From a virus (Duplodnaviria; Caudoviricetes), in the IMG/VR virus record IMGVR_UViG_3300009183_004565: a stretch of 64,000 nucleotides of DNA, one strand, 5' to 3'. Under the pieces are notes generated by a model. The model did no database searches. It saw only the letters and a list, made by a program, of their open reading frames with translations, and had not been told where the DNA came from. Positions 3,762 through 62,875 of this stretch are shown here, piece after piece; the stretch's first letter is position 1, and the number at the start of each line of letters is the position of its first letter. Position numbers and translations under genes: made by a program.

Positions 3762-3825
3762 CCATAATTCCCTATTTTGCTATAATATGTGTATAGTGAA
3801 TAACAAGGAGTAGCAAATGAGCAAA
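3756..3825 (+). repeat. 70-bp promoter+RBS+start cassette, copy A
   Basis: Matches 3988-4057 with a single mismatch. Confidence 0.9.
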
Positions 3826-3984
3826 CTTTACCAAGTAACATACACTTTAGAAGTAACCGAGCTTGTTGAAGCAGATAGCAAAGAAGATGCAGAGCAAGCG
3901 TTTAGTGAGCAGTTTAGTGATGCACAAGACTTGTTGGAAATGGGCAAGTATAAAGTCAAACGTGTCACAGAACGTTCTGCTTAA
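3817..3984 (+). CDS. 55-aa acidic early protein
   Basis: MSKLYQVTYTLEV...; cassette RBS; absent from the ORF track. Confidence 0.65.
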   Translation: MSKLYQVTYTLEVTELVEADSKEDAEQAFSEQFSDAQDLLEMGKYKVKRVTERSA

Positions 3985-3987
3985 AAC

Positions 3988-4057
3988 GGTTGACCATAAT
4001 TCCCCATTTTGCTATAATATGTGTATAGTGAATAACAAGGAGTAGCAAATGAGCAAA
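3988..4057 (+). repeat. 70-bp promoter+RBS+start cassette, copy B
   Basis: Matches 3756-3825 with a single mismatch. Confidence 0.9.
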
Positions 4058-5829: not shown

Positions 5830-6139
5830 TAGGATACTGTAATGGGTAGTGAACAGTTGTACTTTGTAATTGGATTCTTGCTAGGCACTATCATCACAGG
5901 ATGTCTGTGTATGATAGGGTTTATCGTGTGGCATGAATGGTTTTATCGACCACCGCAGCAGGAAGAATAGTGTCAGTGTATGTTTGGACATTGGTAGTTT
6001 TTATATATGCTGATGGAGTATGGCGTGATTGGCGCAGCTACAATCGTCTTGAAGAATGTTTAGAAGCAGCTCATGTTATATCGTATCGTAGAGCAGATGT
6101 ACTTGACGTTAAATGTGAGCGTAGAGAAGTAAAATAAGA

Positions 6140-6440
6140 ATTGTTGTAATTCCTTTAAAGCAAAGGCATGTTGGACGGGGTTTCGATACCCCCATCTCCA
6201 CCAGAAGCACATTATGGAGTTACCCGCTACACTACTAAAGGATCGCTACCTTTAGTAATATACAACGTGTGGTAGTGTGTTTCTGATGGGGATGAATTGG
6301 TTTCGACAGCGTGAGATAGTAGAGAAGGCAACACGGTAGGCGATCTCCGTAAAAGAAGCAAAACTCGTAACTGCAAACGATAGTTACTACGCAATGGCCG
6401 CTTGAGCCAAAGCCGGGGGTAGCGCCTTGTTAACCAATAG
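6140..6440 (+). ncRNA. ssrA: circularly permuted (two-piece) tmRNA
   Basis: T-arm and CATCTCC-A-CCA end at 6203; 5' end GGGGATG at 6288 gives a 7-bp acceptor stem with G3.U70; tag frame GCA AAC GAT AGT TAC TAC GCA ATG GCC GCT TGA = ANDSYYAMAA* at 6373-6405; outer ends approximate. Confidence 0.92.
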
Positions 6441-6444
6441 CTAG

Positions 6445-6469
6445 AATAGGACCTTCGGGTCCTATTTTT
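6445..6469 (+). terminator. intrinsic terminator after tmRNA
   Basis: AATAGGACC-TTCG-GGTCCTATT then T-tract. Confidence 0.85.
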
Positions 6470-9498: not shown

Positions 9499-9517
9499 AC
9501 GGCTAATAAATATCTGT

Positions 9518-9871
9518 ATGCATAGACGTATCTTTAACCTCGAGCGGGATCTACGCAGTACTTGGTGGTTAGTGGAAAAAGTACAAGCCAAAGATGCTTA
9601 CGCTCAACATTTATATGCCACCTTGTGCAACAACGAGTTTGCACCCCGGGACACTTGGGCTATCCTACAAAATATTAAATGGAGTTGTACCTGGCGCTAT
9701 GCTGGTGGTATTATAGCCGACATACGTGGCTCCGGCGACTACTTAGATTGGTACTGTTCGGGTATGTTTAATGATGGAATAATTGACTGGGAAATGGCCG
9801 AAGAAGGTGTTGTGTACCCAGAAATTGAAGAGGACATCAATAACATAGGTTGGTTAGTTATAACCAAATAA
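9518..9871 (+). CDS. hypothetical protein (apparently leaderless)
   Basis: TAAATA (9507-9512) + 5 nt + ATG, no SD. Confidence 0.7.
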   Translation: MHRRIFNLERDLRSTWWLVEKVQAKDAYAQHLYATLCNNEFAPRDTWAILQNIKWSCTWRYAGGIIADIRGSGDYLDWYCSGMFNDGIIDWEMAEEGVVYPEIEEDINNIGWLVITK

Positions 9872-9938: not shown

Positions 9939-10586
9939 TTACTTTCCCAATAGGCTGTCAACCTTTGCTTCAACGATATTTAAACGTACTTCAACAGCAT
10001 CTAATGCTGGATCAGCGGGCATAACAACTGCGTCAGCAACTTGTTGCATTACTTCAGGAGCAACAGCGTCAACACCGGTTGCGGTAGCGATAACACCAGA
10101 AACTGCAGCAACAATTTGCTCAACTACTTCTGGTGCTGGAGCTGGAGCATCAGCAACTGCTTGTACAATGGCTTCTGTTAAGGCTACTGGATCCATGACA
10201 ATCTCTGGATCGGCTGTAACAATAGCAGCAACAGCAGCAGCAACTACGTCAGACACCTGAGTATCTACTACTGATTCTGCGGCGTGTTGTTCAGCAATAA
10301 CATCGGCAACAATAGCAGCGGCTTCTGGAACTTCGGCGCTTGGTGATAGTGCAACTAGATCTTCAACTGCTACAGGTGCAGTCGCAGCCGGTGCAGCAAT
10401 AATTTCTTCAATATGTTTTTGAGTTTTTTCAGTAATTAATTGATCAACTTGAACTTCAACTACGGATAATCTTGCATCTAGTTCTTCAACGCTTGTGGCA
10501 TTGTTGGTGTTAACCGCGGTTCCGGTTAATGTTGCTAATTTAGCTTCGACAGCAACCAATCTTGCAGCCAGGTCTTCTAATCTCAT
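9939..10586 (-). CDS. Ala/Val/Glu/Pro-rich protein with three RLxxVExxxxxL helical repeats
   Basis: AAGGAG RBS; Pho-box-like element upstream. Confidence 0.8.
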   Translation of the reverse strand: MRLEDLAARLVAVEAKLATLTGTAVNTNNATSVEELDARLSVVEVQVDQLITEKTQKHIEEIIAAPAATAPVAVEDLVALSPSAEVPEAAAIVADVIAEQHAAESVVDTQVSDVVAAAVAAIVTADPEIVMDPVALTEAIVQAVADAPAPAPEVVEQIVAAVSGVIATATGVDAVAPEVMQQVADAVVMPADPALDAVEVRLNIVEAKVDSLLGK

Positions 10587-10640: not shown

Positions 10641-10675
10641 TACTTATCATTTGGGTCATTACATTATTGTTACAA
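10641..10675 (-). promoter_or_regulatory. Pho-box-like promoter (minus strand)
   Basis: TGTAAC/TGTAAT direct repeats with 11-bp period (10674-10658), TAAGTA starting 17 nt after the start of the second repeat. Confidence 0.65.
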
Positions 10676-10717
10676 ACTGCAAACTACGCCTAAATATTTT
10701 TTTACCAGATCCCTAAT

Positions 10718-10752
10718 TTGTAACACGCTTGTAATACTAGTGTGCTTAAATA
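10718..10752 (+). promoter_or_regulatory. Pho-box-like promoter of pstS
   Basis: TTGTAAC-ACGC-TTGTAAT (11-bp period), TAAATA at 10747. Confidence 0.7.
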
Positions 10753-10786
10753 TTCACTGTAACGAAATATTTCAAAGGAGAAATTA

Positions 10787-11812
10787 ATGAAGAAGTTTGT
10801 GACATTAGCAGCACTAGTATTTTCTACAGTAGTATCAGCAGCTGATTTAACAGGCGCTGGTGCAACTTTTCCCTACCCAATTTATGCCAAATGGGCAGAA
10901 GCATATAAAGCAGCAACAGGTATAGGACTCAATTATCAATCCATCGGTTCAGGTGGTGGTATTCGTCAAATCAAAGCCAAGACAGTGGACTTTGGTGCCA
11001 GTGATATGCCATTGAAAGTAGAGGAATTAGACAAAGAAGGCTTAATGCAATTCCCCGCAATCATTGGTGGTGTTGTTCCGGTATTCAACCTTGATGGTGT
11101 ACAACCTGGTGAATTGAAACTGACCAGTGATGTAATCGCTAATATTCATCTAGGTAAAATTACCAAATGGAATGATCGAGCAATTGCTGAATTGAATCCT
11201 GGTGTCACACTACCAGCAATCAATATCACTGTTGTGCATCGTGCAGATGGCTCAGGCACAACATTCATTTGGACAAACTATCTGAGCAAAGTAAACGCCG
11301 ACTTTAAGAATACTGTAGGCGAAGGCTCTGCTGTGAAATGGCCAACTGGTGTAGGCGGCAAAGGTAACGAAGGTGTTGCGGCCAACGTTCAACGTGTCAA
11401 AGGCGCTTTTGGTTACGTGGAATATGCCTACGCCAAGAAAAACAAAATTGCGTATGCACAATTGAAAAATCGTGATGGTAACTTTGTACAACCAAGTGAT
11501 GATACATTTAAAGCAGCCGCAGCAGGTGCTGATTGGAACAATGCTCCAGGAATGTATTTGTTACTGACAAACCAAACTGGCAAAGATTCATGGCCAGCAA
11601 CTGGTGCCAGTTTTATCATAATGCACAAGCAACAAGCAGATGCTTTAACTGGTCGTGCTATTCTAAAATTCTTTGATTGGTCGTATAAAAACGGCGCCAA
11701 GATGAGTGAAGATTTGGAATATGTACACATGCCTCAGTCAGTTATCAAGTTAGTTCAAGATAACTGGAAAAAAGAACTCAAAGGACCAGACGGTCAATCA
11801 ATTTGGAAATAA
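10787..11812 (+). CDS. pstS: phosphate ABC transporter substrate-binding protein
   Basis: Signal peptide; TGAGATFPYP, YQSIGSGGG, DFGASD, HRADGSGTT motifs. Confidence 0.97.
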   Translation: MKKFVTLAALVFSTVVSAADLTGAGATFPYPIYAKWAEAYKAATGIGLNYQSIGSGGGIRQIKAKTVDFGASDMPLKVEELDKEGLMQFPAIIGGVVPVFNLDGVQPGELKLTSDVIANIHLGKITKWNDRAIAELNPGVTLPAINITVVHRADGSGTTFIWTNYLSKVNADFKNTVGEGSAVKWPTGVGGKGNEGVAANVQRVKGAFGYVEYAYAKKNKIAYAQLKNRDGNFVQPSDDTFKAAAAGADWNNAPGMYLLLTNQTGKDSWPATGASFIIMHKQQADALTGRAILKFFDWSYKNGAKMSEDLEYVHMPQSVIKLVQDNWKKELKGPDGQSIWK

Positions 11813-11875
11813 ATCATTTGACATACTCTAACACTTTTAATATAGTGTTAGAGTATCAACATAAAGGAAAATGTA

Positions 11876-13291
11876 ATGAAACAATTTAAAATACTAACAG
11901 CGGCTCTGGCAATAGCTATGATGTTTGCTGGCGCAGCACAAGCAGATGAGTACACTGACACGTTAGATATTCTTTTACAAAAAGGAATTCTCACCAAGCA
12001 AGAACACGCTGCCAAAATTGAAGCACATAAAGATCGCTTGGAAAACAAAGAATTCCAATCATCTAGAATTGACAAAGATGTTAAAGACAACAACAACTAT
12101 CGTTTGAGCAAAGTGAATGATGGCGCTGTAATGGAAAATGGTCTTGGGATCAAATCAAAAGATGGCAATACCACAGCACAGTTTACTGGTCGTATTCATA
12201 TGGACTATAGAAGTTATACTCAAACATTTAGTTCTGGTCAAAGCACTGATCCATATCAAGACACACTAGAAGTTCGTCGTGGACGTTTTGGTGTACGTGG
12301 ACAGATTGCCAAAGACTTCAAATATCTGCTACTAGCAAACTTTGGTAACGATGCTGGCGCAAGTTCAACTACATCAACAATTGATGAGTTTTGGTTTAAC
12401 TATGCCGCTATCACAGAAGCACAACTACAAGTTGGTACATTCAAGATGCCTTTCAGTCTTGAACAGTTGACCAGTTCCAACAACATTGACTTTATGGAAC
12501 GTAGCCTGATTGGTCAGACCGAAGGCGAATTTATTCCTGCCAAAGAAACTGGTGTGATGCTGCATGGTATTCCTAGAACAGGATTCACCTATGCGTTGGC
12601 ACTAAGTCGTGGTCGTGCTAACAAGAGTACTACAGTTGATGGTGTAGATGTTATTGGTCGTGTGACTACAAACGTTGCAGAAGTAATTCAGAACAAAGAC
12701 TTTGTAGCACACTTAGGTGCAGCATACAGCACAGGCAATGTCAAAACAGGTGTTGCTCCCGCTAGTGGTCGTACTGAAGGACGTCAACAAAGTGCATGGT
12801 TCACAGGTTCATCTGCAATGAGTGGTGATACTGCACGAACACGCCAGGGCATTGAAGCAGCATTTGCCTGGAAGGGTTTGAAAGTACAGGGTGAGCAATT
12901 CGTCTTTAACTACGATCCTGCTACAGGAACAGACAAAGAGATCAAGGGTCACTATGTTCAAGCAATTTATAACATCACAGGTGAGAGTCACAACTACAAA
13001 GATGGCGTATTTGGTTGGATCAAACCTAACTCTGCTTTCACAAGTGGTGGCAGAGGCGCATGGCAAGTTGGCGTAAGAGCCAGTGAGTTTAATGCCGAAG
13101 ATATTACAGTTGCAACTGGTAAAGCAAATCTAGCAACGTCATTGACTTACGGTATTACTTGGTTTCTGAATGACAATGTACGCATAATGGCAAACTATGT
13201 TGACACCAAATTCAACAAACCAGTTGGTACATCTGGTGCCCGTGTAGATGGTGAACAGGCAGTTATGCTCAGAGGTCAGATCAGTTTCTAA
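11876..13291 (+). CDS. phosphate-selective outer-membrane porin (OprO/OprP family)
   Basis: Signal peptide, TLDILLQKGILT N-terminus, RRGRFGVRG, FSLEQLTSSNNIDFMER, C-terminal Phe; directly after pstS. Confidence 0.88.
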   Translation: MKQFKILTAALAIAMMFAGAAQADEYTDTLDILLQKGILTKQEHAAKIEAHKDRLENKEFQSSRIDKDVKDNNNYRLSKVNDGAVMENGLGIKSKDGNTTAQFTGRIHMDYRSYTQTFSSGQSTDPYQDTLEVRRGRFGVRGQIAKDFKYLLLANFGNDAGASSTTSTIDEFWFNYAAITEAQLQVGTFKMPFSLEQLTSSNNIDFMERSLIGQTEGEFIPAKETGVMLHGIPRTGFTYALALSRGRANKSTTVDGVDVIGRVTTNVAEVIQNKDFVAHLGAAYSTGNVKTGVAPASGRTEGRQQSAWFTGSSAMSGDTARTRQGIEAAFAWKGLKVQGEQFVFNYDPATGTDKEIKGHYVQAIYNITGESHNYKDGVFGWIKPNSAFTSGGRGAWQVGVRASEFNAEDITVATGKANLATSLTYGITWFLNDNVRIMANYVDTKFNKPVGTSGARVDGEQAVMLRGQISF

Positions 13292-13310
13292 TTTCAAAAT
13301 TAGAACAAAT

Positions 13311-13335
13311 AAAAGGCACTTAGGTGCCTTTTTTT
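13311..13335 (+). terminator. intrinsic terminator
   Basis: AAAAGGCAC-TTAG-GTGCCTTTT plus T-tract. Confidence 0.85.
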
Positions 13336-13341
13336 ACGACT

Positions 13342-13376
13342 TTGTAATGGATTTGTAATCTTGCAAACCTTAAATA
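13342..13376 (+). promoter_or_regulatory. Pho-box-like promoter of the plcP-like gene
   Basis: TTGTAAT-GGAT-TTGTAAT (11-bp period), TAAATA at 13371. Confidence 0.7.
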
Positions 13377-13381
13377 ATTAT

Positions 13382-14227
13382 ATGAGCAAGACCTATCGTA
13401 GTATTTTTATCAGTGATATACACCTTGGTACTAAAGACTGTAAGGCTGTTGAGCTAAACAATTTTTTAAAAAATAATACCTGTAACACGTTATATCTTGT
13501 TGGTGATATTATAGATGCATGGAAAATAAAACAGAACAAGTGGCGTTGGAAACAAAGTCATACAAATGTTATACGCCGCATACTGGGTCATGCCAAAAGA
13601 GATACTCGTATTATATATGTACTAGGTAATCACGATGAGTTTTTAAGACCGTTCCTGCAATACAATTTAAATTTTGGAATGGTAGAGTTACATAACCAAT
13701 ACGAGCATATAGGTGCCGACGGTAAACATTATCTAGTCACACACGGTGACCTGTTTGATGGTATTACTAGACTGGCACCTTGGCTTAGTATATTAGGAGA
13801 CAAAGCATATGATTTCATACTTACTCTCAATTCTAGATTCAATTGGCTCCGTCATAGACTTGGCTTTGGTTATTGGAGTCTTAGCCTTTATCTTAAACAA
13901 CGGGTTAAACGAGCTTTAGACTTTATATTCCAGTTTGAAAGAAATCTAGCCGCATACTGTAAAAAGCGTGGATTTGATGGTGTCATATGCGGACACATAC
14001 ATCACGCAGAAATCAAAGAAATAGATGGTGTAGTATACATGAACGACGGTGACTGGGTTGAGTCAATGACAGCATTAGTAGAACATCATAACGGTCGTTG
14101 GGAAATCATAACTTGGACGCAGGAGAAGGATGATGTGGTTGATGATATTGATGGCAGTACACATAAACGATCCACGGGACGTTCCAGCAAAAATGACCTT
14201 GGAGTTCCCGGATCAACAGACGTGTGA
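13382..14227 (+). CDS. plcP: PlcP-like phospholipase C / LpxH-like metallophosphoesterase
   Basis: FISDIHLG, LVGDIID, GNHDE, HGD, GHIHH, NDGDWVES; paired with a GT4 gene as in bacterial plcP-agt loci; ATG 13382 preferred. Confidence 0.75.
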   Translation: MSKTYRSIFISDIHLGTKDCKAVELNNFLKNNTCNTLYLVGDIIDAWKIKQNKWRWKQSHTNVIRRILGHAKRDTRIIYVLGNHDEFLRPFLQYNLNFGMVELHNQYEHIGADGKHYLVTHGDLFDGITRLAPWLSILGDKAYDFILTLNSRFNWLRHRLGFGYWSLSLYLKQRVKRALDFIFQFERNLAAYCKKRGFDGVICGHIHHAEIKEIDGVVYMNDGDWVESMTALVEHHNGRWEIITWTQEKDDVVDDIDGSTHKRSTGRSSKNDLGVPGSTDV

Positions 14228-14287
14228 ACAAAGTGCAAAGTCGATGACGTATTGGGTAAAATTTGAATCATTCAAGATTGATGTAAA

Positions 14288-15301
14288 ATGCGTAAAAAAA
14301 TATTAGTAATAACAGATAACACACCGGATCAGATTAATGGCGTGGTTACAACTTTTAAGAACCTTGAGACCATGGCTGTTCTGGACGGTTATAGTATTGT
14401 ATACCTTACTCCCCGGGAGTTCGTACATTTTGATTGCCCAGGCTACCCTGAAGTTAAATTTGCCTGGCCGTGGGGTCTGGGTAAAAAGATTAAGGAGATA
14501 TCTCCGGATTATATACACATCGCCACAGAAGGTCCTCTTGGTTTGTGTGCTAGACTTTATCTTGACCTCCGGGGCTATAGGTATAATACTAGTTACCATA
14601 CTAAGTTCCCTGAATTTCTAAAAAAGATATACAATGTTCCAGAATGTATTACCTGGGGTTACCTACGTTGGTTCCATAAACACTCAGGCATAGTGTTAAC
14701 TAACACTAATACCATGGTCAATGAATTACGCAGACATGGATTCGAAGGTGGAATCATTCCATGGACTCGCGGAGTCAATAGAGAAGAATTGCAGCCCACA
14801 CAAGCATGGCCTCATCCTAATCCAAGGCCCTTGATATTATACGTGGGCCGTGTTAGTCAAGAAAAAGACATTGATGTAGTATGTCGACTAATTGATACAT
14901 ATGACGTGGTTGTTGTTGGTGACGGACCTGACAGAAAAAGGCTAGAGCAAGAACATCCAGGGTGTCAATTTGTGGGATATAAAACTGGAAAAGAATTAGC
15001 AGACTGGTATGCAAGAGCAGATGTACTGGCTTTTCCTAGTAGAGTTGATACATTTGGTATAGTAATGATTGAAGCAATGAGTCTAGGTACTCCAGTAGCA
15101 GCATACCTAGTACCTGGACCGCAAGATATTATTCGTCAAGGTGTTTCGGGATACATGAGCGAACGATTAAGAGACGCCGTGGACTTATGCTTACATATTC
15201 CTAGAGCCAGAGTTGTAGCAGACAGTGAGCGTTGGACGTGGGAATTATGTTGGGTTATATTTCGTAACAATCTAGTAGATTTAAATCGGGTGCAACAATA
15301 G
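14288..15301 (+). CDS. GT4 glycosyltransferase, Agt-like (glycosyl-diacylglycerol synthase)
   Basis: QINGVVTT, HIATEGPLG, TSYHTKFPE, YVGRVSQEK, FPSRVDTFG..EA motifs. Confidence 0.85.
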   Translation: MRKKILVITDNTPDQINGVVTTFKNLETMAVLDGYSIVYLTPREFVHFDCPGYPEVKFAWPWGLGKKIKEISPDYIHIATEGPLGLCARLYLDLRGYRYNTSYHTKFPEFLKKIYNVPECITWGYLRWFHKHSGIVLTNTNTMVNELRRHGFEGGIIPWTRGVNREELQPTQAWPHPNPRPLILYVGRVSQEKDIDVVCRLIDTYDVVVVGDGPDRKRLEQEHPGCQFVGYKTGKELADWYARADVLAFPSRVDTFGIVMIEAMSLGTPVAAYLVPGPQDIIRQGVSGYMSERLRDAVDLCLHIPRARVVADSERWTWELCWVIFRNNLVDLNRVQQ

Positions 15302-15397
15302 AGCACCGCTGGAACTCGTAACCAGATTTCCCATTGGGGATTTTCATGTATAAATATTAGTATCAAAGGTAAAGAGCGCCTGCCCTTTTATTCAATT

Positions 15398-15656: not shown

Positions 15657-16301
15657 ATGAAACCTACCATTGCTATGTTCCTGTACCAGCCCCGAGCGTC
15701 TGTGCAATGTGGAAATGCAATGATGGAGGTTCTTTCTGATTACTACAAATTCAAAATTTTTACCAAGCAGGATATGGAAAAAGATTTCTTTGATGGAGTA
15801 GATATCGTGGCTTTTCCTGGCGGCGATGGGGATAGTGAAAGCTATCATTTTTTAATGAAGCATCACGAAAAACGTATACAAAACTTCGTACAAGACGGTG
15901 GTCGTTATTTAGGTATTTGTATGGGTGCTTATTGGGCCGGAAGCCATTACTTTGATATGCTAGACGGTGTAGATGCTGTACAGTATATTACACAACCCAA
16001 TACAGACACTCGCCGACCTCATGCCAAAGCCTGTCCTGTCAATTGGGACGGAGAAGATATGCGAATGTATTTTTACGATGGCTGTGCTTTAGCAGGTGAC
16101 GAGAGCAAGTTTGACACCATTGCTCGCTATGCAAACGGTGACCCAATGGCCATATTTCAAGACCGTATTGGAATCATGGGCTGTCACCCCGAAAGTGAAC
16201 AATGGTGGTATGAAATACATAACTATCTAAAACCGCATTATCATAACGGATATCATCATCAATTGTTGCTCGAATTTGTTGACCAATTAATGCAACAGTA
16301 G
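15657..16301 (+). CDS. class I glutamine amidotransferase-like (BPL-N type) protein
   Basis: FPGGDG, YLGICMGAY, HPE triad pattern. Confidence 0.75.
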   Translation: MKPTIAMFLYQPRASVQCGNAMMEVLSDYYKFKIFTKQDMEKDFFDGVDIVAFPGGDGDSESYHFLMKHHEKRIQNFVQDGGRYLGICMGAYWAGSHYFDMLDGVDAVQYITQPNTDTRRPHAKACPVNWDGEDMRMYFYDGCALAGDESKFDTIARYANGDPMAIFQDRIGIMGCHPESEQWWYEIHNYLKPHYHNGYHHQLLLEFVDQLMQQ

Positions 16302-16329
16302 TATAATAATTTTTTAGAAGGAGAAGTCA

Positions 16330-16767
16330 ATGAGTAATCTCAAAGGTAGCAAAACAGCTGAATGTCTCAAAGAAGCATTTGCCGGAGAATCAATGGCAAA
16401 TCGTCGTTACTTGTATTTTGCAAACGGTTGCGATATTGCAGGTGAAAATGATCTAGCAGCATTGTTCCGTTCAACCGCCGAAGGTGAAACAGGACATGCA
16501 CATGGTCATATGGAGTATTTGATTGAAGGTGGTGCAGGCGAACCCGGTACAGGCTTACCAGGTAAGACACCACTTGAAATGTTACAAGCAGCAATTCATG
16601 GCGAAACACACGAGTACACAGACATGTATCCGGGTATGGCACGTACTGCCCGTGACGAAGGATTTGATGAAGTTGCTGATTGGTTTGAAACATTGGCCAA
16701 AGCAGAACGCAGTCACGCCAATCGTTATCAAAAAGCACTAGAGAAGTACACTGCTGATAATGCCTAA
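16330..16767 (+). CDS. rbr: rubrerythrin (short, no rubredoxin domain)
   Basis: [44 protein letters not shown]. Confidence 0.93.
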
Positions 16768-29585: not shown

Positions 29586-30425
29586 ATGAAAATCGCAGTA
29601 TGCAGCGATCTCCATTTAGAGTTTGGAGATTTGGACTTAGAGAACACCAAGAACGCCGACGTGCTGATTCTTGGTGGTGACATCTTCATTGCCGAAGATT
29701 TAAATCACTTTGAGCCCAACTTGATCAATAATGATGTGTTGATTCCGACTCGCATGGCTCTACGTGCCCAGCGTTCATATGACTTTGTTCAACGCTGTTG
29801 CGAACGGTTTCCGCATGTTGTATTAATCGCAGGTAACCACGAACACTATCACGGTGATTTTGCTGAGACTCATTGGACGTTGCGTAAGGTGTTTGCAGAC
29901 TTTACTAATCTACACATCTTGGACAAACAGTTTACTATAATTGACAATGTTGTATTCTTTGGTGGCACACTATGGACCAACATGAACAGCGAAGATCCTG
30001 AAACCATGCGGACTGTTCGTGGCATAATGAATGACTACAACTGTATCAAGAATACATCAGAAGAAGGTATGAAAGTATTCATGCCCGAAGATTCTGTTAC
30101 GGATCATAAAAAGTTCTTGGCCGAACTTGATCGGGTGTTGCGTGTTTATCCCACACAACCTACAGTGGTAGTCGGGCATCATGCACCTAGCAAAGCAAGC
30201 ACTCATCCTCGTTATAAAACTGAAACAATAATGAATGGTGCATATAGCAGCAACTTGGACAATTTTATTCTTGACAATCGTCAGATCAAACTTTGGACAC
30301 ATGGACACACACACGAAGATTTTGATTACATGATCGGATCTACTCGTATTGTTTGCAACCCACGTGGCTATGATGGGTACGAGGCCAAGGCTGATACATT
30401 TACTCTTAAATACGTGGAGATCTAA
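29586..30425 (+). CDS. metallophosphoesterase
   Basis: SDLHLEF, GGDI, AGNHEHY, GHHAP, HGHTH. Confidence 0.92.
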   Translation: MKIAVCSDLHLEFGDLDLENTKNADVLILGGDIFIAEDLNHFEPNLINNDVLIPTRMALRAQRSYDFVQRCCERFPHVVLIAGNHEHYHGDFAETHWTLRKVFADFTNLHILDKQFTIIDNVVFFGGTLWTNMNSEDPETMRTVRGIMNDYNCIKNTSEEGMKVFMPEDSVTDHKKFLAELDRVLRVYPTQPTVVVGHHAPSKASTHPRYKTETIMNGAYSSNLDNFILDNRQIKLWTHGHTHEDFDYMIGSTRIVCNPRGYDGYEAKADTFTLKYVEI

Positions 30426-60576: not shown

Positions 60577-60592
60577 TAATATAAATATTTTT

Positions 60593-62875
60593 ATGTTACA
60601 AACCAATCCCGAAATTGATCATGTTGTGTCCGAAGCTACGCTTTTAGCAAAATCTTTCAGTCACGAGTATGTAACACTGGAGCATGTCTTTTTAAGTATG
60701 GTTAGATATGATCCATTTAAAGATTTCATTGTCAGTTACGGTGCCGATGTTGAGGGTCTAGATGCAGACCTTGATGCTTATCTTGGTGCACAAGACTTGT
60801 TGGTAGTAAACGATTCTGATCCTAAAAAAACACATGCCTTAGAGCGTGTTTTTAATCGTGCATTCACCCAGGTACTTTTTAGTTCCAGAACCCATGTACA
60901 AATGATGGATTTATTTCTAAGTATCCATGCAGAAACTAGTAGCTATGCACATTACTTTATGGTCAAGTACAATCTTGATCGTGCAAAGCTTGTTGAAATG
61001 TACAATAAAAGTTATAAATCTGAAGCAGGTAAAGCTGTAGCAAGTGCAAGTCAAGCAGATAAGATTCTTGAACACTACTGTGACAACTTAAACAAAAAAG
61101 CCGAAGAGGGTAATATAGATCCGGTTATCGGAAGAGAAAACGAAACTAACGAAATTGTTGAAACTTTAGCACGTCGTAACAAATCAAATGTACTAATGAT
61201 TGGCGATCCAGGTGTTGGTAAAACAGCAATTGCCGAAGGATTAGCTCTAGCTATTGTTCTCAAAACAGTGCCAGAATATCTACTAGACTATACAGTATAC
61301 AATCTTGATATCAGCAGCTTGTTGGCAGGTAGTAAGTACCGCGGCGACTTTGAAGAAAAGATACACGAAATACTTGCAGCACTTAATGTTAAAGGCAAGT
61401 CAATACTGTTCATTGACGAAGCACATCAAATGCGCGGTGCAGGTGCAGGAAGTCAAAATAGTGTAGACTTTAGTAATATAATTAAACCTGCACTAAGCAA
61501 AGGTAAAATTAAAGTTATTGCTAGTACTACATGGGAAGAATATACGCAGAGTTTTGAAAAGGATCGTGCATTAATGCGACGCTTTCAACGTATTACTATC
61601 GACGAACCAAGTCCAGTAATAGCCAAAGAAATTTTATACGGATTACGTCTAAATTTTGAAAAGTTTCATGACGGTACTATTACCGACGATGCTATTGATG
61701 CAGCAGTTGAGCTCAGTGTGCGTTATCAAACAGATAAAAAACTCCCAGATAAGGCAATTGATCTTATTGATGCTTCTTGTGCCAAGTTAAAAATTAAAGG
61801 TACAGCATGGATTGTGGATCGTGCTGTTATCATTAACACTATCAGTAGACTTACTAGAATTCCTGTAGAACAGATTGGTAATACTGAAGGCGCAAAAGGA
61901 ATTGAAGGTCTAGAAGCAAATGTCAAAGATCGACTGTACGGACAAGATGCTGCTGTAGATACTGTGCTAGAAAAAATCTATGTTAGCCGTGCAGGATTGA
62001 AATCATTGAGTAAGCCAATTGGTAACTTCTTGTTCTTGGGTCCAACTGGTACTGGTAAAACAGAACTAGCAAAGTTACTGGCAGAAAATCTTGGCATGAA
62101 ACTGTTACGTTACGATATGAGTGAATATCAAGAACGTCATACTGTTGCTAAACTAATTGGTGCTCCTCCAGGCTATGTGGGCTACGAAGATGGCAACTTG
62201 GGTGGTGGGTTACTGATCAGTGATATTGAAAAGAATCCAAACTGTATTATACTAATGGACGAAATTGAAAAAGCTCATCCTGATGTAAGCAACATCTTAC
62301 TGCAAATGATGGATGAAGGAACTATTACCAGCAGTAACGGTAAGAAAGCCGACTGTCGCAATGCTATTGTTATTCTAACCAGTAATCTTGGTGCTGCGGA
62401 TAACGAACGTAACACAATTGGTTTTACCAAAGAACTGCAGAAATCCGGCGAAGATGACAAAGCAGTTAAAGACTTCTTTAAACCTGAATTTCGTAATCGT
62501 TTAGATGGCATTGTCAAGTTTGCCAAACTTGATGATCTAAGTATGCGTAAGATTGTTGGCAAGTTTATTGGTGAACTAAACGATTTACTACTAGAAAAAC
62601 AATTACGTGTTAGACTAACTGAAGCTGCAGTAGACGAATTGGTTACTAAAGGGTTTGATCCCAAGATGGGTGCTCGTCCATTGCAACGAAAGATCAATGA
62701 CTTAATTAAAGTACCTCTAAGTAAAAAGATCTTGTTTGACAAAATTCCTAGTAACAGTATAATAGTAGTAGGTTTTGTCGATGATAAGTTTGATTTTCAA
62801 ATTATAGCTTCGGCTGATACCACATATAGAATAGACGAAAATGGATATATCCTTTTGGAAGAGCCTATCATCTGA
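60593..62875 (+). CDS. clpA: ClpA-like AAA+ unfoldase
   Basis: Clp-N domain, GDPGVGKT and GPTGTGKT, IGAPPGYVG, FKPEFRNRLD; no ClpB middle domain; IGF-like IGFT loop. Confidence 0.92.
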   Translation: MLQTNPEIDHVVSEATLLAKSFSHEYVTLEHVFLSMVRYDPFKDFIVSYGADVEGLDADLDAYLGAQDLLVVNDSDPKKTHALERVFNRAFTQVLFSSRTHVQMMDLFLSIHAETSSYAHYFMVKYNLDRAKLVEMYNKSYKSEAGKAVASASQADKILEHYCDNLNKKAEEGNIDPVIGRENETNEIVETLARRNKSNVLMIGDPGVGKTAIAEGLALAIVLKTVPEYLLDYTVYNLDISSLLAGSKYRGDFEEKIHEILAALNVKGKSILFIDEAHQMRGAGAGSQNSVDFSNIIKPALSKGKIKVIASTTWEEYTQSFEKDRALMRRFQRITIDEPSPVIAKEILYGLRLNFEKFHDGTITDDAIDAAVELSVRYQTDKKLPDKAIDLIDASCAKLKIKGTAWIVDRAVIINTISRLTRIPVEQIGNTEGAKGIEGLEANVKDRLYGQDAAVDTVLEKIYVSRAGLKSLSKPIGNFLFLGPTGTGKTELAKLLAENLGMKLLRYDMSEYQERHTVAKLIGAPPGYVGYEDGNLGGGLLISDIEKNPNCIILMDEIEKAHPDVSNILLQMMDEGTITSSNGKKADCRNAIVILTSNLGAADNERNTIGFTKELQKSGEDDKAVKDFFKPEFRNRLDGIVKFAKLDDLSMRKIVGKFIGELNDLLLEKQLRVRLTEAAVDELVTKGFDPKMGARPLQRKINDLIKVPLSKKILFDKIPSNSIIVVGFVDDKFDFQIIASADTTYRIDENGYILLEEPII

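What the first reader, a model, noticed from the sequence alone, without database searches (positions are those of the whole stretch)
10641..15301. Phage Pho-type regulon linking phosphate import to a PlcP/Agt membrane-lipid remodelling pair
Seen: pstS and an OprO/P-type porin are followed by a PlcP-like metallophosphoesterase and an Agt-like GT4 glycosyltransferase, and both pstS and the plcP-like gene carry their own Pho-box-like promoter. Established: in P-starved heterotrophic bacteria, PlcP cleaves phospholipid head groups and Agt glycosylates the released diacylglycerol, replacing phospholipids with glycolipids under PhoB control. Inference: the phage could sense host P status, then both import phosphate and mine host membrane phospholipids for P to build its genome. 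It could also change the lipid surface. Phage pstS is well known; I do not know of a characterised phage-borne, Pho-regulated lipid remodelling module.
Basis: partly seen in the sequence, partly recalled or inferred. Interest (0 to 1): 0.88.

Follow-up and report, generated by a model that had tools for sequence, protein, structure and literature searches.

The report
Phage phosphate-uptake and lipid-swap module
A very large freshwater phage carries genes to import phosphate plus a bacterial-type enzyme pair that probably strips phosphate from the host's membrane lipids and replaces them with sugar lipids; two of the units sit behind promoters that look like phosphate-starvation switches, and virus surveys have so far listed the key enzyme under the wrong name.

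Summary
Window 10787-15301 encodes an exported PstS, an exported OprO/P-type porin, a PlcP-family metallophosphoesterase (true start 13382) and a GT4 of the Agt/GTcp clade.

- The phosphoesterase is not LpxH. It scores 42 bits against a cut-off of 134, has GNHD rather than GNRD, and sits inside the cellular PlcP-like clade.
- In 57 of 80 proteobacterial genomes its homologue is followed by a homologue of this GT4. The GT4 keeps every published Agt/GTcp motif that could be checked.
- TGTAAY-N5-TGTAAY-N11-TAAATA occurs exactly twice in 64 kb, before pstS and before plcP. It is conserved at both promoters in four diverged relatives.
- It has the architecture of betaproteobacterial Pho boxes, but every half-site reads TGTAA, not TGTCA. 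PhoB control is therefore plausible, not shown.

New here:
- A hidden phage-only 58-codon gene (14130-14306) overlaps plcP and the GT.
- plcP appears to be leaderless.
- The porin has its own sigma-70-type promoter.
- Relatives swap GT4 for GT2 and OprO/P for Porin_4.

At least 575 IMG/VR viral contigs carry the plcP-like gene. Pelagibacter phage Mosig carries it next to pstS, annotated as LpxH. No paper describing it was found. This scan found the same module before on other genomes (e1-5342588, e1-5342583). Function and regulation remain untested.

The parts
9939..10586 (-). 215-aa gene of unknown family, divergent from pstS; possible third member of the regulon
   Evidence: ORF list. No Pfam or PHROG family. 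An AAGGAG precedes its ATG on the minus strand. No divergent gene stands before pstS in L002 or L109.
10641..10674 (-). Third Pho-box-like repeat (TGTAAC-N5-TGTAAT) with TAAGTA 11 nt downstream, facing gene 9939-10586
   Evidence: Pattern search, 2 mismatches to the extended pattern; 1 mismatch to the repeat alone.
10718..10753 (+). pstS promoter: TTGTAAC-N4-TTGTAAT, 11 nt, TAAATA (10748-10753), followed by a 33-nt leader with an AAGGAG ribosome-binding site
   Evidence: Exact match. The same architecture stands before pstS in L109, L002, L004 and L107, with invariant TGTAA, GTAA and TTAAATA columns and variable spacers.
10787..11812 (+). pstS, periplasmic phosphate-binding protein with a Sec signal peptide
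   Evidence: NF008171 443 bits (cut-off 339), TIGR00975 395 bits. phrog_5385 phosphate transporter subunit, 219 bits. Signal peptide. 61-63% identical to PstS of Limnohabitans and Acidovorax genomes.
11818..11856 (+). Sigma-70-type promoter TTGACA-17-TATAGT (11818-11846) embedded in a 12-bp-arm inverted repeat (about 11823-11856) between pstS and the porin
   Evidence: Promoter scan, 11 of 12 positions. TTGACx-17-TAnAnT and an inverted repeat with different arm sequences recur at the same place in L109 and L004.
11876..13291 (+). OprO/OprP-family outer-membrane porin with signal peptide
   Evidence: PF07396, 141.7 bits, E 4.6e-41. Signal peptide. At most 42% identical to the best Burkholderiales-order porins listed. 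Only one weak hit in 50,697 deposited phage records.
13311..13336 (+). Hairpin plus T-run terminator closing the pstS-porin unit
   Evidence: Sequence. The terminator scan finds the hairpin at 13311-13332. A hairpin at this place is kept in L109, L002 and L004, but not in L107, where plcP does not follow the porin.
13331..13376 (+). plcP promoter: a weak third half-site (TTTTTAC), then TTGTAAT-N4-TTGTAAT (13342-13359), 11 nt, TAAATA (13371-13376); only 5 nt separate TAAATA from ATG 13382, so the mRNA is probably leaderless
   Evidence: The same repeat, spacing and TAAATA-N5-ATG occur in L109, L002, L004 and L107.
13382..14227 (+). PlcP-family metallophosphoesterase (phospholipase C type), 281 aa; its last ~30 residues are a poorly conserved tail overlapped by the small gene
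14130..14306 (+). Hidden 58-codon gene, in the +1 frame relative to plcP, overlapping the plcP tail and the first 19 nt of the GT4; found only in phages
   Evidence: Open and conserved in all 6 phage loci examined and in 74 of 77 IMG/VR loci. Length is 56-58 aa in most of 75 loci; mean pairwise identity is 54%, against 28% for the overlapped plcP tail. Not found in 80 cellular plcP loci. No Pfam-type family.
14288..15301 (+). Agt/GTcp-clade GT4 glycosyltransferase (predicted diacylglycerol glycosyltransferase), 337 aa
15328..15356 (+). Weak terminator-like hairpin (15328-15340), then TATAAATA (15349-15356) for the next gene; marks the end of the module

Best explanation
This is a phosphorus-stress auxiliary module of a roughly 350-kb freshwater phage with T4-type TAAATA promoters. 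It consists of two transcription units.

Unit 1 (pstS and the OprO/P porin) adds a high-affinity periplasmic phosphate-binding protein and an outer-membrane anion channel to the host's uptake system.

Unit 2 (plcP, a 58-codon gene, and agt) is a virus-borne copy of the bacterial PlcP-Agt lipid-renovation pathway.
- The metallophosphoesterase cleaves the phospho-head group from phospholipids, leaving diacylglycerol.
- The GT4 glycosylates the diacylglycerol to a phosphorus-free glycolipid. The membrane therefore stays intact while lipid phosphorus is released for the phage's large DNA demand: about 700,000 phosphates per ~350-kb genome copy, by arithmetic.

Both units start with two 11-bp-spaced TGTAAY direct repeats in the -35 position, 11 nt upstream of TAAATA. 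This is the layout of a PhoB-activated promoter, so expression is probably raised when the host's PhoR/PhoB system reports phosphate starvation.

Shown here:
- gene identities at family and clade level;
- the operon homology with bacteria;
- conservation and non-randomness of the promoter motif;
- phage context and wide distribution.

Inferred:
- enzymatic activities;
- PhoB binding;
- the timing of expression;
- the benefit to the phage.
For: PlcP identity
- The LpxH equivalogs score only 42 and 31 bits against cut-offs of 134 and 190.
- In five proteobacterial genomes a true LpxH (227-332 bits) coexists with a PlcP-like paralogue scoring 38-56 bits in four of them; the phage protein scores in the same range.
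- GNHD and the C-terminal GDW[VIL]E motif occur in 5 of 5 phage and 74 of 75 cellular PlcP-like proteins. GNRD occurs in 4 of 4 LpxH proteins.
- All metallophosphoesterase metal-binding motifs are invariant.
- In the ML tree the phage clade (SH-aLRT 100) lies inside the cellular PlcP-like family, which is separated from LpxH by a branch of length 5 (SH-aLRT 100).
- The protein is 45-58% identical to cellular homologues. Characterised PlcPs are 46-47% identical to each other (PMC8528852).
- In the AF2 model (pLDDT 83) the 25 best PDB matches are all LpxH at 16-22% identity, and the model has a two-helix insertion.

Agt identity
- A same-strand GT4 homologue (33-42% identity) follows the PlcP-like gene in 57 of 80 genomes. 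This is the published type-2 plcP-agt arrangement (PMC4796936).
- In three genomes the phage GT4's best genome-wide hit is the plcP-adjacent gene: 192-219 bits, with the next hit at 33 bits or absent.
- The GTcp motifs GRVAxEKN and FPSxTDTFG, the His104/Asp dyad and the mutated residues all have counterparts: GRVSQEKD, FPSRVDTFG, H104, D254, G82, G85, R188, K193, T255, F256, G257, E262, W318. These are also conserved in 50 cellular plcP-adjacent GT4s.

Module coherence
- Relatives keep the four functions while shuffling their order and replacing parts: GT4 by GT2, and OprO/P by Porin_4.
- Of 77 IMG/VR loci with enough downstream sequence, 32 have a GT4 and 36 have a GT2 after plcP.
- Another phage type adds a fatty-acid desaturase.

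Regulation
- The motif is exact only at the two promoters.
- It is conserved in 5 phages at 2 promoters each, with variable spacers.
- Limnohabitans pstS has TTGTCAC-N4-TTGTCAC-N10-TAAAGT, and a 40%-GC Burkholderiales-order genome has TTGTCAC-N4-ATGTCAC-N10-TATAAT. Both share the phage architecture.
- Cellular plcP upstream regions are enriched in Pho boxes: 31 of 80 score at least 10 of 14, against about 4 expected.
- Precedent: cyanophage pstS is controlled by host PhoBR (Zeng and Chisholm 2012, as cited in PMC10976474).

Phage context
- The window encodes a clamp loader, an endolysin and virion proteins.
- An 81%-identical GT4 is deposited as 'uncultured Caudovirales phage' and its longest contig on record is 368,830 bp.
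Against: - No activity, lipid or expression data exist for any phage copy. No RNA run was available to test expression.
- No direct alignment with an experimentally characterised PlcP or Agt sequence could be made, because none could be fetched. Membership therefore rests on orthologous operons and published motifs.
- All phage half-sites read TGTAA (a few GGTAA, one GGTCA). The betaproteobacterial Pho boxes inspected read TGTCA. Against CTGTCAT-N4-CTGTCAT the two sites score only 9 and 10 of 14.
- PMC10976474 found that predicted Pho boxes in a cyanophage did not reliably predict PhoB binding or P-dependent expression.
- TAAATA is a general promoter element of this phage. The units may therefore simply be late genes.
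- PlcP releases phosphoethanolamine or glycerol-3-phosphate, not free phosphate. Further host enzymes are needed to use it.
- The host is unknown.
- The phage PlcP clade is not nested among Burkholderiales sequences.
Confidence: 0.6

Rival explanations
1. The enzymes are PlcP and Agt, but the direct repeats are not PhoB sites. They bind another winged-helix response regulator of the host or a phage-encoded factor, or they merely modulate a late promoter. Expression would then follow the infection programme rather than phosphate status.
For: - Half-sites are consistently TGTAA rather than the TGTCA seen in the bacterial Pho boxes inspected.
- The downstream element is the phage's own general TAAATA promoter core. 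It is enriched in non-coding DNA (16 observed against 8.4 expected) and present before many unrelated genes.
- Pho-box prediction in phage genomes has been shown to be unreliable (PMC10976474).
- Many OmpR/PhoB-family regulators bind 10-11-bp-spaced direct repeats (general knowledge).
Against: - The motif occurs only in front of the two classical Pho-regulon functions and one divergent gene, not before other TAAATA promoters.
- Spacing, orientation and distance to the -10 element match bacterial pstS Pho promoters base for base, apart from one position in each half-site.
- The spacer ACGC is even shared with a bacterial plcP Pho box.
- Cellular homologues of the same genes carry Pho boxes (PMC4796936, PMC8528852).
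Confidence: 0.25
2. The lipid unit is used mainly to change the membrane rather than to obtain phosphorus. Possible purposes are blocking superinfection, stabilising or re-tuning the envelope of a cell that must support a very long jumbo-phage cycle, or altering sensitivity to lysis or to grazers.
For: - In 9 of 77 related viral loci a fatty-acid desaturase follows the GT, which points to membrane tuning in general.
- Most viral loci carry the plcP/small-gene/GT core without pstS within 3.5 kb; pstS is present in 14 of 66.
- Lipid remodelling changes phage attachment and predator interactions in bacteria, according to paper titles and abstracts listed (PMC9938194, PMC9457565).
Against: - In this phage and four relatives the unit is adjacent to pstS and a porin and shares the same promoter motif with pstS.
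- In bacteria the pathway is a phosphate-starvation response (PMC4796936, PMC8528852).
- The two readings are not mutually exclusive.
Confidence: 0.12
3. The phosphoesterase is a true LpxH (as it is annotated in databases) and the GT4 an LPS-core transferase, so that the pair modifies lipid A or LPS.
For: - Source annotations read 'UDP-2,3-diacylglucosamine pyrophosphatase LpxH' and 'RfaG glycosyltransferase'.
- The closest solved structures are LpxH.
- Viral surveys list lpxH under LPS biosynthesis (PMC10653327, PMC9611531).
Against: - Scores are far below both LpxH equivalog cut-offs.
- The motif is GNHD, not GNRD.
- In the tree the protein is separated from LpxH of the same genomes by a long, fully supported branch.
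- It is 16-22% identical to solved LpxH and 22-33% to the LpxH proteins of those genomes in local alignments, against 45-58% to PlcP-like proteins.
- The GT4 carries the Agt/GTcp motifs and groups with plcP-linked genes.
Confidence: 0.03

Closest known systems
Bacterial PlcP-Agt lipid renovation pathway (S. meliloti SMc00171; Phaeobacter MED193_17359; SAR11 HTCC7211 PlcP with Agt PB7211_960/GTcp; A. tumefaciens Agt atu2297; P. aeruginosa PA3219/PA3218)
   Same: - The two enzyme families, in the same order and strand, with a short or no gap.
- The same signature motifs.
- A direct-repeat promoter in the Pho-box position.
- Sequence identities (45-58% for PlcP, 33-42% for Agt) in the range seen between characterised members.
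   Different: - Carried by a phage.
- An extra phage-only 58-codon gene overlaps both enzymes.
- Half-sites read TGTAA instead of TGTCA.
- The -10 element is the phage's TAAATA, and the plcP mRNA appears leaderless.
- In sister phages a GT2 replaces the GT4.
- No activity data exist.
Cyanophage phosphate-stress auxiliary genes (pstS, phoA) under host PhoR/PhoB control (Zeng and Chisholm 2012; S-PM2d study PMC10976474)
   Same: Phage-borne pstS behind a putative Pho box; a virus exploiting the host's phosphate sensor; a T4-like promoter grammar.
   Different: - The host is a heterotrophic Gram-negative bacterium, probably betaproteobacterial on the evidence of a phage tmRNA of the RF01850 type.
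- The Pho-box type is proteobacterial, not the cyanobacterial PyTTAAPyPy(T/A).
- The module adds an outer-membrane porin and a lipid-renovation operon. These are not part of the cyanophage set described in the papers read.
Pelagibacter phage Mosig EXVC030M, genes Mosig_00119 (pstS) and Mosig_00120 ('putative UDP-2,3-diacylglucosamine hydrolase')
   Same: An isolated phage with a PlcP-family gene (50.6% identity, E 1e-77) directly next to pstS and divergently transcribed from it. It groups with the phage clade, beside two cellular sequences, in the tree.
   Different: - No glycosyltransferase, porin or small gene is annotated beside it.
- Its intergenic repeats are of a TTAAC type.
- It is annotated as an LPS enzyme.
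LpxH (UDP-2,3-diacylglucosamine diphosphatase)
   Same: Calcineurin-like metallophosphoesterase core with a helical insertion. It is the best structural match: 25 of the top 25 PDB hits, TM-score normalised to the target 0.56-0.67.
   Different: - Fails both equivalog cut-offs.
- GNHD instead of GNRD.
- 16-22% identity.
- A separate clade.
- Coexists with true LpxH in four of the five genomes searched.

Membership tests
PlcP (metallophosphoesterase-type phospholipase C of lipid remodelling) | Calcineurin-like metallophosphoesterase motifs (DxH, GD, GNHD/E, H, GHxH) intact | tested here: met
   D19, H21, D49, N90, H91, H128, H212 and H214 are invariant in 28- and 8-sequence alignments. Pfam Metallophos, 44.6 bits.
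PlcP (metallophosphoesterase-type phospholipase C of lipid remodelling) | A paralogue distinct from LpxH | tested here: met
   NF003743 42 bits (cut-off 134) and TIGR01854 31 bits (cut-off 190). GNHD and GDW[VIL]E occur in the phage and 74 of 75 cellular PlcP-like proteins, against GNRD in 4 of 4 LpxH. Tree split has SH-aLRT 100. A true LpxH is present elsewhere in all five genomes searched, beside a PlcP-like paralogue in four of them.
PlcP (metallophosphoesterase-type phospholipase C of lipid remodelling) | Groups with an experimentally characterised PlcP (SMc00171, MED193_17359, PA3219, PB7211) | not testable with these tools
   No characterised sequence could be fetched: the genomes held are unnamed and the one genome-contig scan did not return those species. 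Indirect evidence: 54-56% identity to the PlcP-like gene of three Pseudomonas species (locus coordinates re-derived) and 45-58% to 80 proteobacterial homologues. Characterised PlcPs share 46-47% with each other (PMC8528852).
PlcP (metallophosphoesterase-type phospholipase C of lipid remodelling) | Linked to a gene that makes a phosphorus-free lipid from diacylglycerol | tested here: met
   A GT4 of the Agt clade lies 60 nt downstream in the window. A GT4 or a GT2 follows in 68 of 77 related viral loci. An Agt-type GT4 follows in 57 of 80 cellular loci. This is type 2 of PMC4796936.
PlcP (metallophosphoesterase-type phospholipase C of lipid remodelling) | Metal-dependent hydrolysis of PE, PG or PC to diacylglycerol | not testable with these tools
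   Needs an enzyme assay. The key biochemical paper (Wei et al. 2018, PMC6052262) is not held.
Agt/GTcp clade of GT4 (diacylglycerol glucosyl/glucuronosyl transferase) | GT-B GT4 domains, about 334 aa | tested here: met
   337 aa; Glyco_transf_4 plus Glycos_transf_1. GTcp is 334 aa (PMC8231724).
Agt/GTcp clade of GT4 (diacylglycerol glucosyl/glucuronosyl transferase) | UDP-sugar motifs GRVAxEKN and FPSxTDTFG; dyad His104 with Asp in place of the usual GT4 Glu | tested here: met
   GRVSQEKD, FPSRVDTFG, H104 and D254 are present. G82, G85, R188, K193, T255, F256, G257 and E262 are present and invariant or nearly so in 50 cellular plcP-adjacent GT4s. Numbering matches GTcp or is offset by 2. The GTcp sequence itself was not aligned.
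Agt/GTcp clade of GT4 (diacylglycerol glucosyl/glucuronosyl transferase) | DAG-binding residues (GTcp Thr162, Arg163, Trp320) | tested here: inconclusive
   T160, R161 and W318 are plausible counterparts, and W318 is invariant in 50 homologues. Equivalence is inferred from position only.
Agt/GTcp clade of GT4 (diacylglycerol glucosyl/glucuronosyl transferase) | Orthology with the plcP-linked GT4 of bacteria | tested here: met
   The best genome-wide hit in G001, G003 and G004 is the plcP-adjacent gene (192-219 bits). The next hit is 33 bits or absent.
LpxH | Reaches the curated equivalog score and carries GNRD | tested here: not met
PstS (phosphate ABC transporter binding protein) | Equivalog score and export signal | tested here: met
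   NF008171, 443 bits against 339. Signal peptide.
OprO/OprP phosphate-selective porin | Pfam PF07396 over the gathering score, with an export signal | tested here: met
   141.7 bits against 20.9. Signal peptide. Anion or phosphate selectivity residues were not examined.
PhoB-activated promoter (Pho box) | Two 7-bp direct repeats with an 11-bp period replacing the -35 element, 10-11 bp upstream of the -10 element | tested here: met
   The layout is identical to the pstS promoters of a Limnohabitans genome and an unnamed Burkholiales-order genome, where Burkholderiales is the GTDB order.
PhoB-activated promoter (Pho box) | Half-site consensus CTGTCAT | tested here: inconclusive
   9 and 10 of 14 positions match. 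There is a systematic C-to-A change at position 5 in nearly all 20 phage half-sites inspected.
PhoB-activated promoter (Pho box) | PhoB~P binding and low-phosphate induction | not testable with these tools
   No RNA run was listed for this DNA. Needs EMSA and reporter assays.

The most novel reading that the evidence does not exclude
Freshwater and marine phages carry a virus-adapted, three-gene lipid-mining cassette: plcP, a phage-only 56-58-aa protein, and an interchangeable GT4 or GT2.

- The small protein would be a phage-specific partner of PlcP. The interface prediction gives weak support: ipSAE 0.39 against 0.00 for the best control.
- The cassette would be fired from a hybrid promoter that joins a host PhoB site to the phage's own TAAATA element, giving a leaderless mRNA.
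- In jumbo phages it is joined to pstS and a porin, forming a complete virus-encoded phosphate-starvation response.

If true, during infection of P-limited bacteria a sizeable share of membrane phosphorus would be redirected into virions. The many 'viral lpxH' entries in auxiliary-gene surveys would then be misassigned.
Probability: 0.3. Interest if true: 0.8.

Novelty: new variant of a known kind. Interest (0 to 1): 0.66.

Why it matters
Phage phosphate genes (pstS, phoA) are a textbook case of viruses reprogramming host nutrient physiology. Membrane-lipid renovation is the other major bacterial answer to phosphate scarcity, and no paper found here describes it for phages.

- A phage-borne PlcP-Agt pathway would mean that viruses also tap the phospholipid pool. 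This matters most for jumbo phages, whose genomes need several hundred thousand phosphates per copy.
- It would change how viral 'lpxH' genes are read in metagenome surveys, where they are now filed under LPS biosynthesis.
- It adds a new term to phosphorus budgets of P-limited lakes and oceans.
- It offers a compact, testable system: two promoters, three small genes, and interchangeable glycosyltransferases.

Tried and rejected
- Megablast of the region against 50,697 phage records gave no match.
It was repeated with 8 rows.
- Host naming:
  - The genome search gives no names.
  - The porin is at most 42% identical to the best of 301 Burkholderiales-order genomes listed.
  - Small low-GC genomes gave no informative pstS promoter.
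  - The lead that Comamonadaceae carry the RF01850 tmRNA type was tested and not met. Three of 151 sampled genomes carry it, one of them with about 40% GC, but it cannot be named and has no PlcP hit with this query. The host remains unknown.
- RNA evidence: no RNA holder was listed for the 4.8-kb region or for the 2-kb lipid unit.
- One LpxH outgroup row (L090) was extracted in the wrong frame and behaved as an artefact in the tree (branch length 10). The other four LpxH rows form the outgroup.
- The papers PMC13691135 and PMC9239053 gave no defining residues for PlcP. PMC6052262 is not held.
- The small gene has no NCBIfam or PHROG family.
- The LpxH/LPS reading was considered and rejected on scores, motif and tree.
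- A CpxR-type site (GTAAA-N5-GTAAA, 10-bp period) and an ArcA-type site (TGTTA) were considered from memory. They were set aside because the period or half-site does not fit. Neither was tested.

Full report
**Context.** The window is phage DNA.
- It encodes a T4-type clamp loader (phrog_168, 243 bits), an endolysin (phrog_181, 250 bits), virion structural proteins and a tail-fibre-like protein, plus a cluster of eight tRNAs.
- It also carries a permuted tmRNA of the Rfam beta_tmRNA type (RF01850, 157 bits).
- Near-identical and 75-95% identical copies of the genes studied lie on metagenomic contigs of 350-369 kb.
- An 81%-identical GT4 is deposited as 'uncultured Caudovirales phage', CAB4133526.1; its longest contig on record is 368,830 bp.
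- The DNA is held by lake and freshwater metagenome runs from several studies.

**The observation.**
- PstS (10787-11812) passes the curated PstS equivalog: 443 bits against 339.
- The next gene (11876-13291) is an OprO/P-family porin: PF07396, 141.7 bits.
- Both have classical signal peptides.
- The third gene is a calcineurin-like metallophosphoesterase and the fourth a GT4 glycosyltransferase.
- The ORF finder starts the third gene at TTG 13361. All close homologues are 276-281 aa and begin MxKTYRSIF, so the start is ATG 13382.

- The protein scores 42 and 31 bits on the two LpxH equivalogs, whose cut-offs are 134 and 190.
- It matches solved LpxH sequences only at E about 0.003.
- I searched five proteobacterial genomes. 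Each has a true LpxH (227-332 bits). Four of them also show a second, PlcP-like paralogue scoring 38-56 bits, the range of the phage protein.
- In a maximum-likelihood tree of 85 rows, the window's protein forms a tight clade with three other phage copies (SH-aLRT 100). That clade lies inside the cellular PlcP-like family. Its nearest neighbours are Pelagibacter phage Mosig and two cellular sequences (a Hyphomonas MAG and an unclassified Pseudomonadota MAG), and the next clade out is gammaproteobacterial.
- Four LpxH rows sit across a branch of length 5 with full support. A fifth LpxH row was mis-framed by my extraction and should be ignored.
- GNHD and a C-terminal GDW[VIL]E motif occur in all 5 phage and 74 of 75 cellular PlcP-like rows. 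All four LpxH rows have GNRD and lack the tail motif.
- All metal-binding motifs are intact.
- An AlphaFold2 model (pLDDT 83) has the phosphoesterase core plus two long inserted helices (140-167, 174-202). Its 25 best PDB matches are all LpxH, at only 16-22% identity. The fold is thus that of a lipid-handling relative of LpxH, but the family is different.
- Identity to 80 proteobacterial homologues is 45-58%. Characterised PlcPs share 46-47% with each other (PMC8528852).
- I could not fetch a characterised PlcP sequence, so direct grouping with one remains untested.

**Is the GT4 an Agt?**
- In 57 of the 80 cellular loci a same-strand GT4, 33-42% identical to the phage enzyme, starts within a few dozen bases of the PlcP-like gene. 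This is the commonest published arrangement, plcP followed by agt (PMC4796936).
- In three genomes the phage GT4's best genome-wide hit is exactly that neighbour (192-219 bits), with the next hit at 33 bits or absent.
- The SAR11 enzyme GTcp defines the clade by three features: the motifs GRVAxEKN and FPSxTDTFG, a His104/Asp dyad in which Asp replaces the usual GT4 Glu, and a set of residues whose mutation abolishes activity (PMC8231724).
- The phage protein has GRVSQEKD, FPSRVDTFG, H104, D254, G82, G85, R188, K193, T255, F256, G257, E262 and W318. These are invariant or nearly so in 50 cellular plcP-adjacent homologues.

**Promoters.**
- TTGTAAY-N4-TTGTAAY has two exact matches in 64 kb, immediately upstream of pstS and of plcP, each followed after 11 nt by TAAATA.
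- The extended pattern has 3 matches at up to 3 mismatches, against 0.13 expected. The third faces the divergent gene 9939-10586.
- In four relatives whose PlcP is roughly 80% identical or less, both promoters keep the half-sites, the 11-bp period, the 11-nt distance and TTAAATA, while spacers and flanks vary.
- The layout equals that of bacterial pstS Pho promoters I read out. A Limnohabitans genome has TTGTCAC-N4-TTGTCAC-N10-TAAAGT. An unnamed 40%-GC genome of the same order has TTGTCAC-N4-ATGTCAC-N10-TATAAT. A bacterial plcP has TTGTCAC-ACGC-CTGTCAC, sharing even the spacer with the phage pstS site.
- Cellular plcP upstream regions are enriched in Pho boxes: 31 of 80 score at least 10 of 14, against about 4 expected.
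- The systematic difference is position 5 of the half-site, A in the phage and C in the bacteria.
- From memory, E. coli phoE uses CTGTAAT, so PhoB can tolerate this base. That is a lead, not a test.
- PMC10976474 shows that predicted Pho boxes in a cyanophage were poor predictors of PhoB binding.
- I therefore rate PhoB control as the most likely reading, but unproven.

**Transcription units.**
- A hairpin with a T-run (13311-13336) closes pstS-porin.
- Between pstS and the porin lies TTGACA-17-TATAGT, matching 11 of 12 positions. It is embedded in an inverted repeat. Two relatives keep both the promoter-like hexamers and an inverted repeat with different arm sequences. The porin may therefore also be expressed independently of the repeat-bearing promoter.
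- plcP has only 5 nt between TAAATA and its ATG and no ribosome-binding site, in all five phages. The same TAAATA-N5-ATG occurs at 9507 and 60582. This suggests leaderless late-type transcripts.

**A hidden gene.**
- In the +1 frame, overlapping the last ~100 nt of plcP and the first 19 nt of the GT4, lies a 58-codon ORF (14130-14306) beginning MMWLMIL.
- It is open and conserved in all six phage loci first examined, whether a GT4 or a GT2 follows, and in 74 of 77 IMG/VR loci.
- Its length is 56-58 aa in most of 75 loci. Mean pairwise identity is 54%, against 28% for the overlapped plcP tail, whose length varies from 0 to 45 aa.
- It was not found in the 80 cellular plcP loci and has no family.
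- An interface prediction with PlcP gave weak support:
  - Score 0.39, best of three controls 0.00.
  - The mark was reached by 51 of 78 solved complexes and 2 of 108 mismatched pairs.
  - At 0.60 or under it was reached by only 5 of those 78 solved complexes and by all 4 mismatches that passed.
  - Runs agree in at least 71% of contacts, and the partner's pLDDT is at least 67.
- This makes a PlcP partner a hypothesis, no more.

**Distribution.**
- Among the best 80, of 77 with enough downstream sequence, a GT4 follows in 32, a GT2 in 36 and neither in 9.
- A fatty-acid desaturase is present in 9 of those 77.
- Of 66 with enough upstream sequence, pstS lies within 3.5 kb in 14 and an OprO/P porin in 7.
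- One relative has the order plcP, small gene, GT4, pstS, and a Porin_4-type porin. Another, on a 173-kb contig of a different phage type, has plcP, small gene, GT4 and a desaturase.
- Non-orthologous replacement of the transferase and of the porin, with the functions retained, argues that selection acts on the module.
- Pelagibacter phage Mosig has the plcP-like gene (50.6% identity) divergent from pstS, and Synechococcus phage S-SRM01 has one at 38%. Both are annotated as LpxH.
- The OprO/P porin has only one weak hit in 50,697 deposited phage records.

**Literature.**
- Searches for PlcP with phage, pelagimyophage with phospholipase, lipid remodelling with auxiliary genes, and pstS with phosphate porin found no description of a phage PlcP/Agt module.
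- Viral surveys list 'lpxH' under LPS biosynthesis (PMC10653327, PMC9611531).
- Earlier follow-ups of this scan reached the same reading on other genomes. My tests here are independent of them, except for three leads I took and checked: the small gene, GNHD against GNRD, and the tmRNA.

**Mechanism proposed.**
1. Under phosphate starvation, host PhoB~P (inferred) activates both units.
2. PstS and the porin raise phosphate capture.
3. PlcP (inferred activity) cleaves PE or PG to diacylglycerol plus a phospho-head group.
4. The GT4 (inferred activity) converts diacylglycerol to glycosyl-diacylglycerol, keeping the membrane intact until lysis.
5. Host enzymes must still release phosphate from the head groups.

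**Verdict.** Gene identities are well supported. The promoter motif is real and conserved. Phosphate control and the benefit to the phage are inferred. This is a new variant of two known kinds (bacterial lipid renovation, and phage phosphate auxiliary genes) rather than a new category.

Noticed in passing
window 14130-14306 (+): Hidden, phage-only 58-codon gene overlapping the plcP tail and the GT4 start. It is conserved in 74 of 77 related viral loci and not found in 80 bacterial plcP loci. The interface prediction with PlcP gave weak support: 0.39 against a best control of 0.00; the mark was reached by 51 of 78 solved complexes and 2 of 108 mismatched pairs, but at 0.60 or under by only 5 of those 78 and by all 4 mismatches that passed; runs agree in at least 71% of contacts; partner pLDDT at least 67.
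   Followed up: yes
window 9507-9520, 13371-13384, 60582-60595 (+): TAAATA followed after exactly 5 nt by an ATG with no ribosome-binding site, three times in the window and at plcP in four relatives. This suggests leaderless mRNAs from the phage's late-type promoters.
   Followed up: partly
window 11818-11856 (+): A near-consensus sigma-70 promoter (TTGACA-17-TATAGT) inside a 12-bp-arm inverted repeat between pstS and the porin. Relatives L109 and L004 keep the hexamers, and the arms differ in sequence yet still pair. It could be an intercistronic RNA hairpin, an operator, or both.
   Followed up: partly
window 6089-6469 (+): Phage-borne permuted tmRNA matching Rfam beta_tmRNA (RF01850, 157 bits). 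The type was over the cut-off in 3 of 151 sampled Burkholderiales-order genomes and not in the Limnohabitans or Acidovorax genomes tested. It is a lead to the host lineage.
   Followed up: partly
window 9939-10586 (-) with 10641-10674: The only minus-strand gene in this part of the window, of no known family. It is preceded by a third Pho-box-like repeat with TAAGTA. No divergent gene stands before pstS in relatives L002 and L109.
   Followed up: partly
window 29586-30425 (+): A second, unrelated metallophosphoesterase (phrog_1649, 193 bits) elsewhere in the window.
   Followed up: no
L006:8004-8729 and 9 of 77 IMG/VR loci: A fatty-acid desaturase directly follows the plcP/small-gene/GT4 cassette in another phage type. 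This suggests wider phage control of membrane lipids.
   Followed up: partly
L053, L063, L066, L067, L069, L077, L084, L045 (about 3800-4000): In Comamonadaceae-type genomes the plcP-like gene overlaps the stop of an upstream gene ending ...RYRKHFLG, so plcP-agt is part of a longer operon there. The upstream gene was not identified.
   Followed up: no
L001:5842-5991 (Pelagibacter phage Mosig): The pstS/plcP divergent intergenic region holds repeated (C)TTAAC(A) units about 11 bp apart, a different candidate regulator site from the TGTAAY of the freshwater phages.
   Followed up: no
window 15657-16767 (+): A BPL_N-like glutamine-amidotransferase-fold protein and a rubrerythrin travel with the module in relatives L002, L109 and L107. 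Their role is unknown.
   Followed up: no
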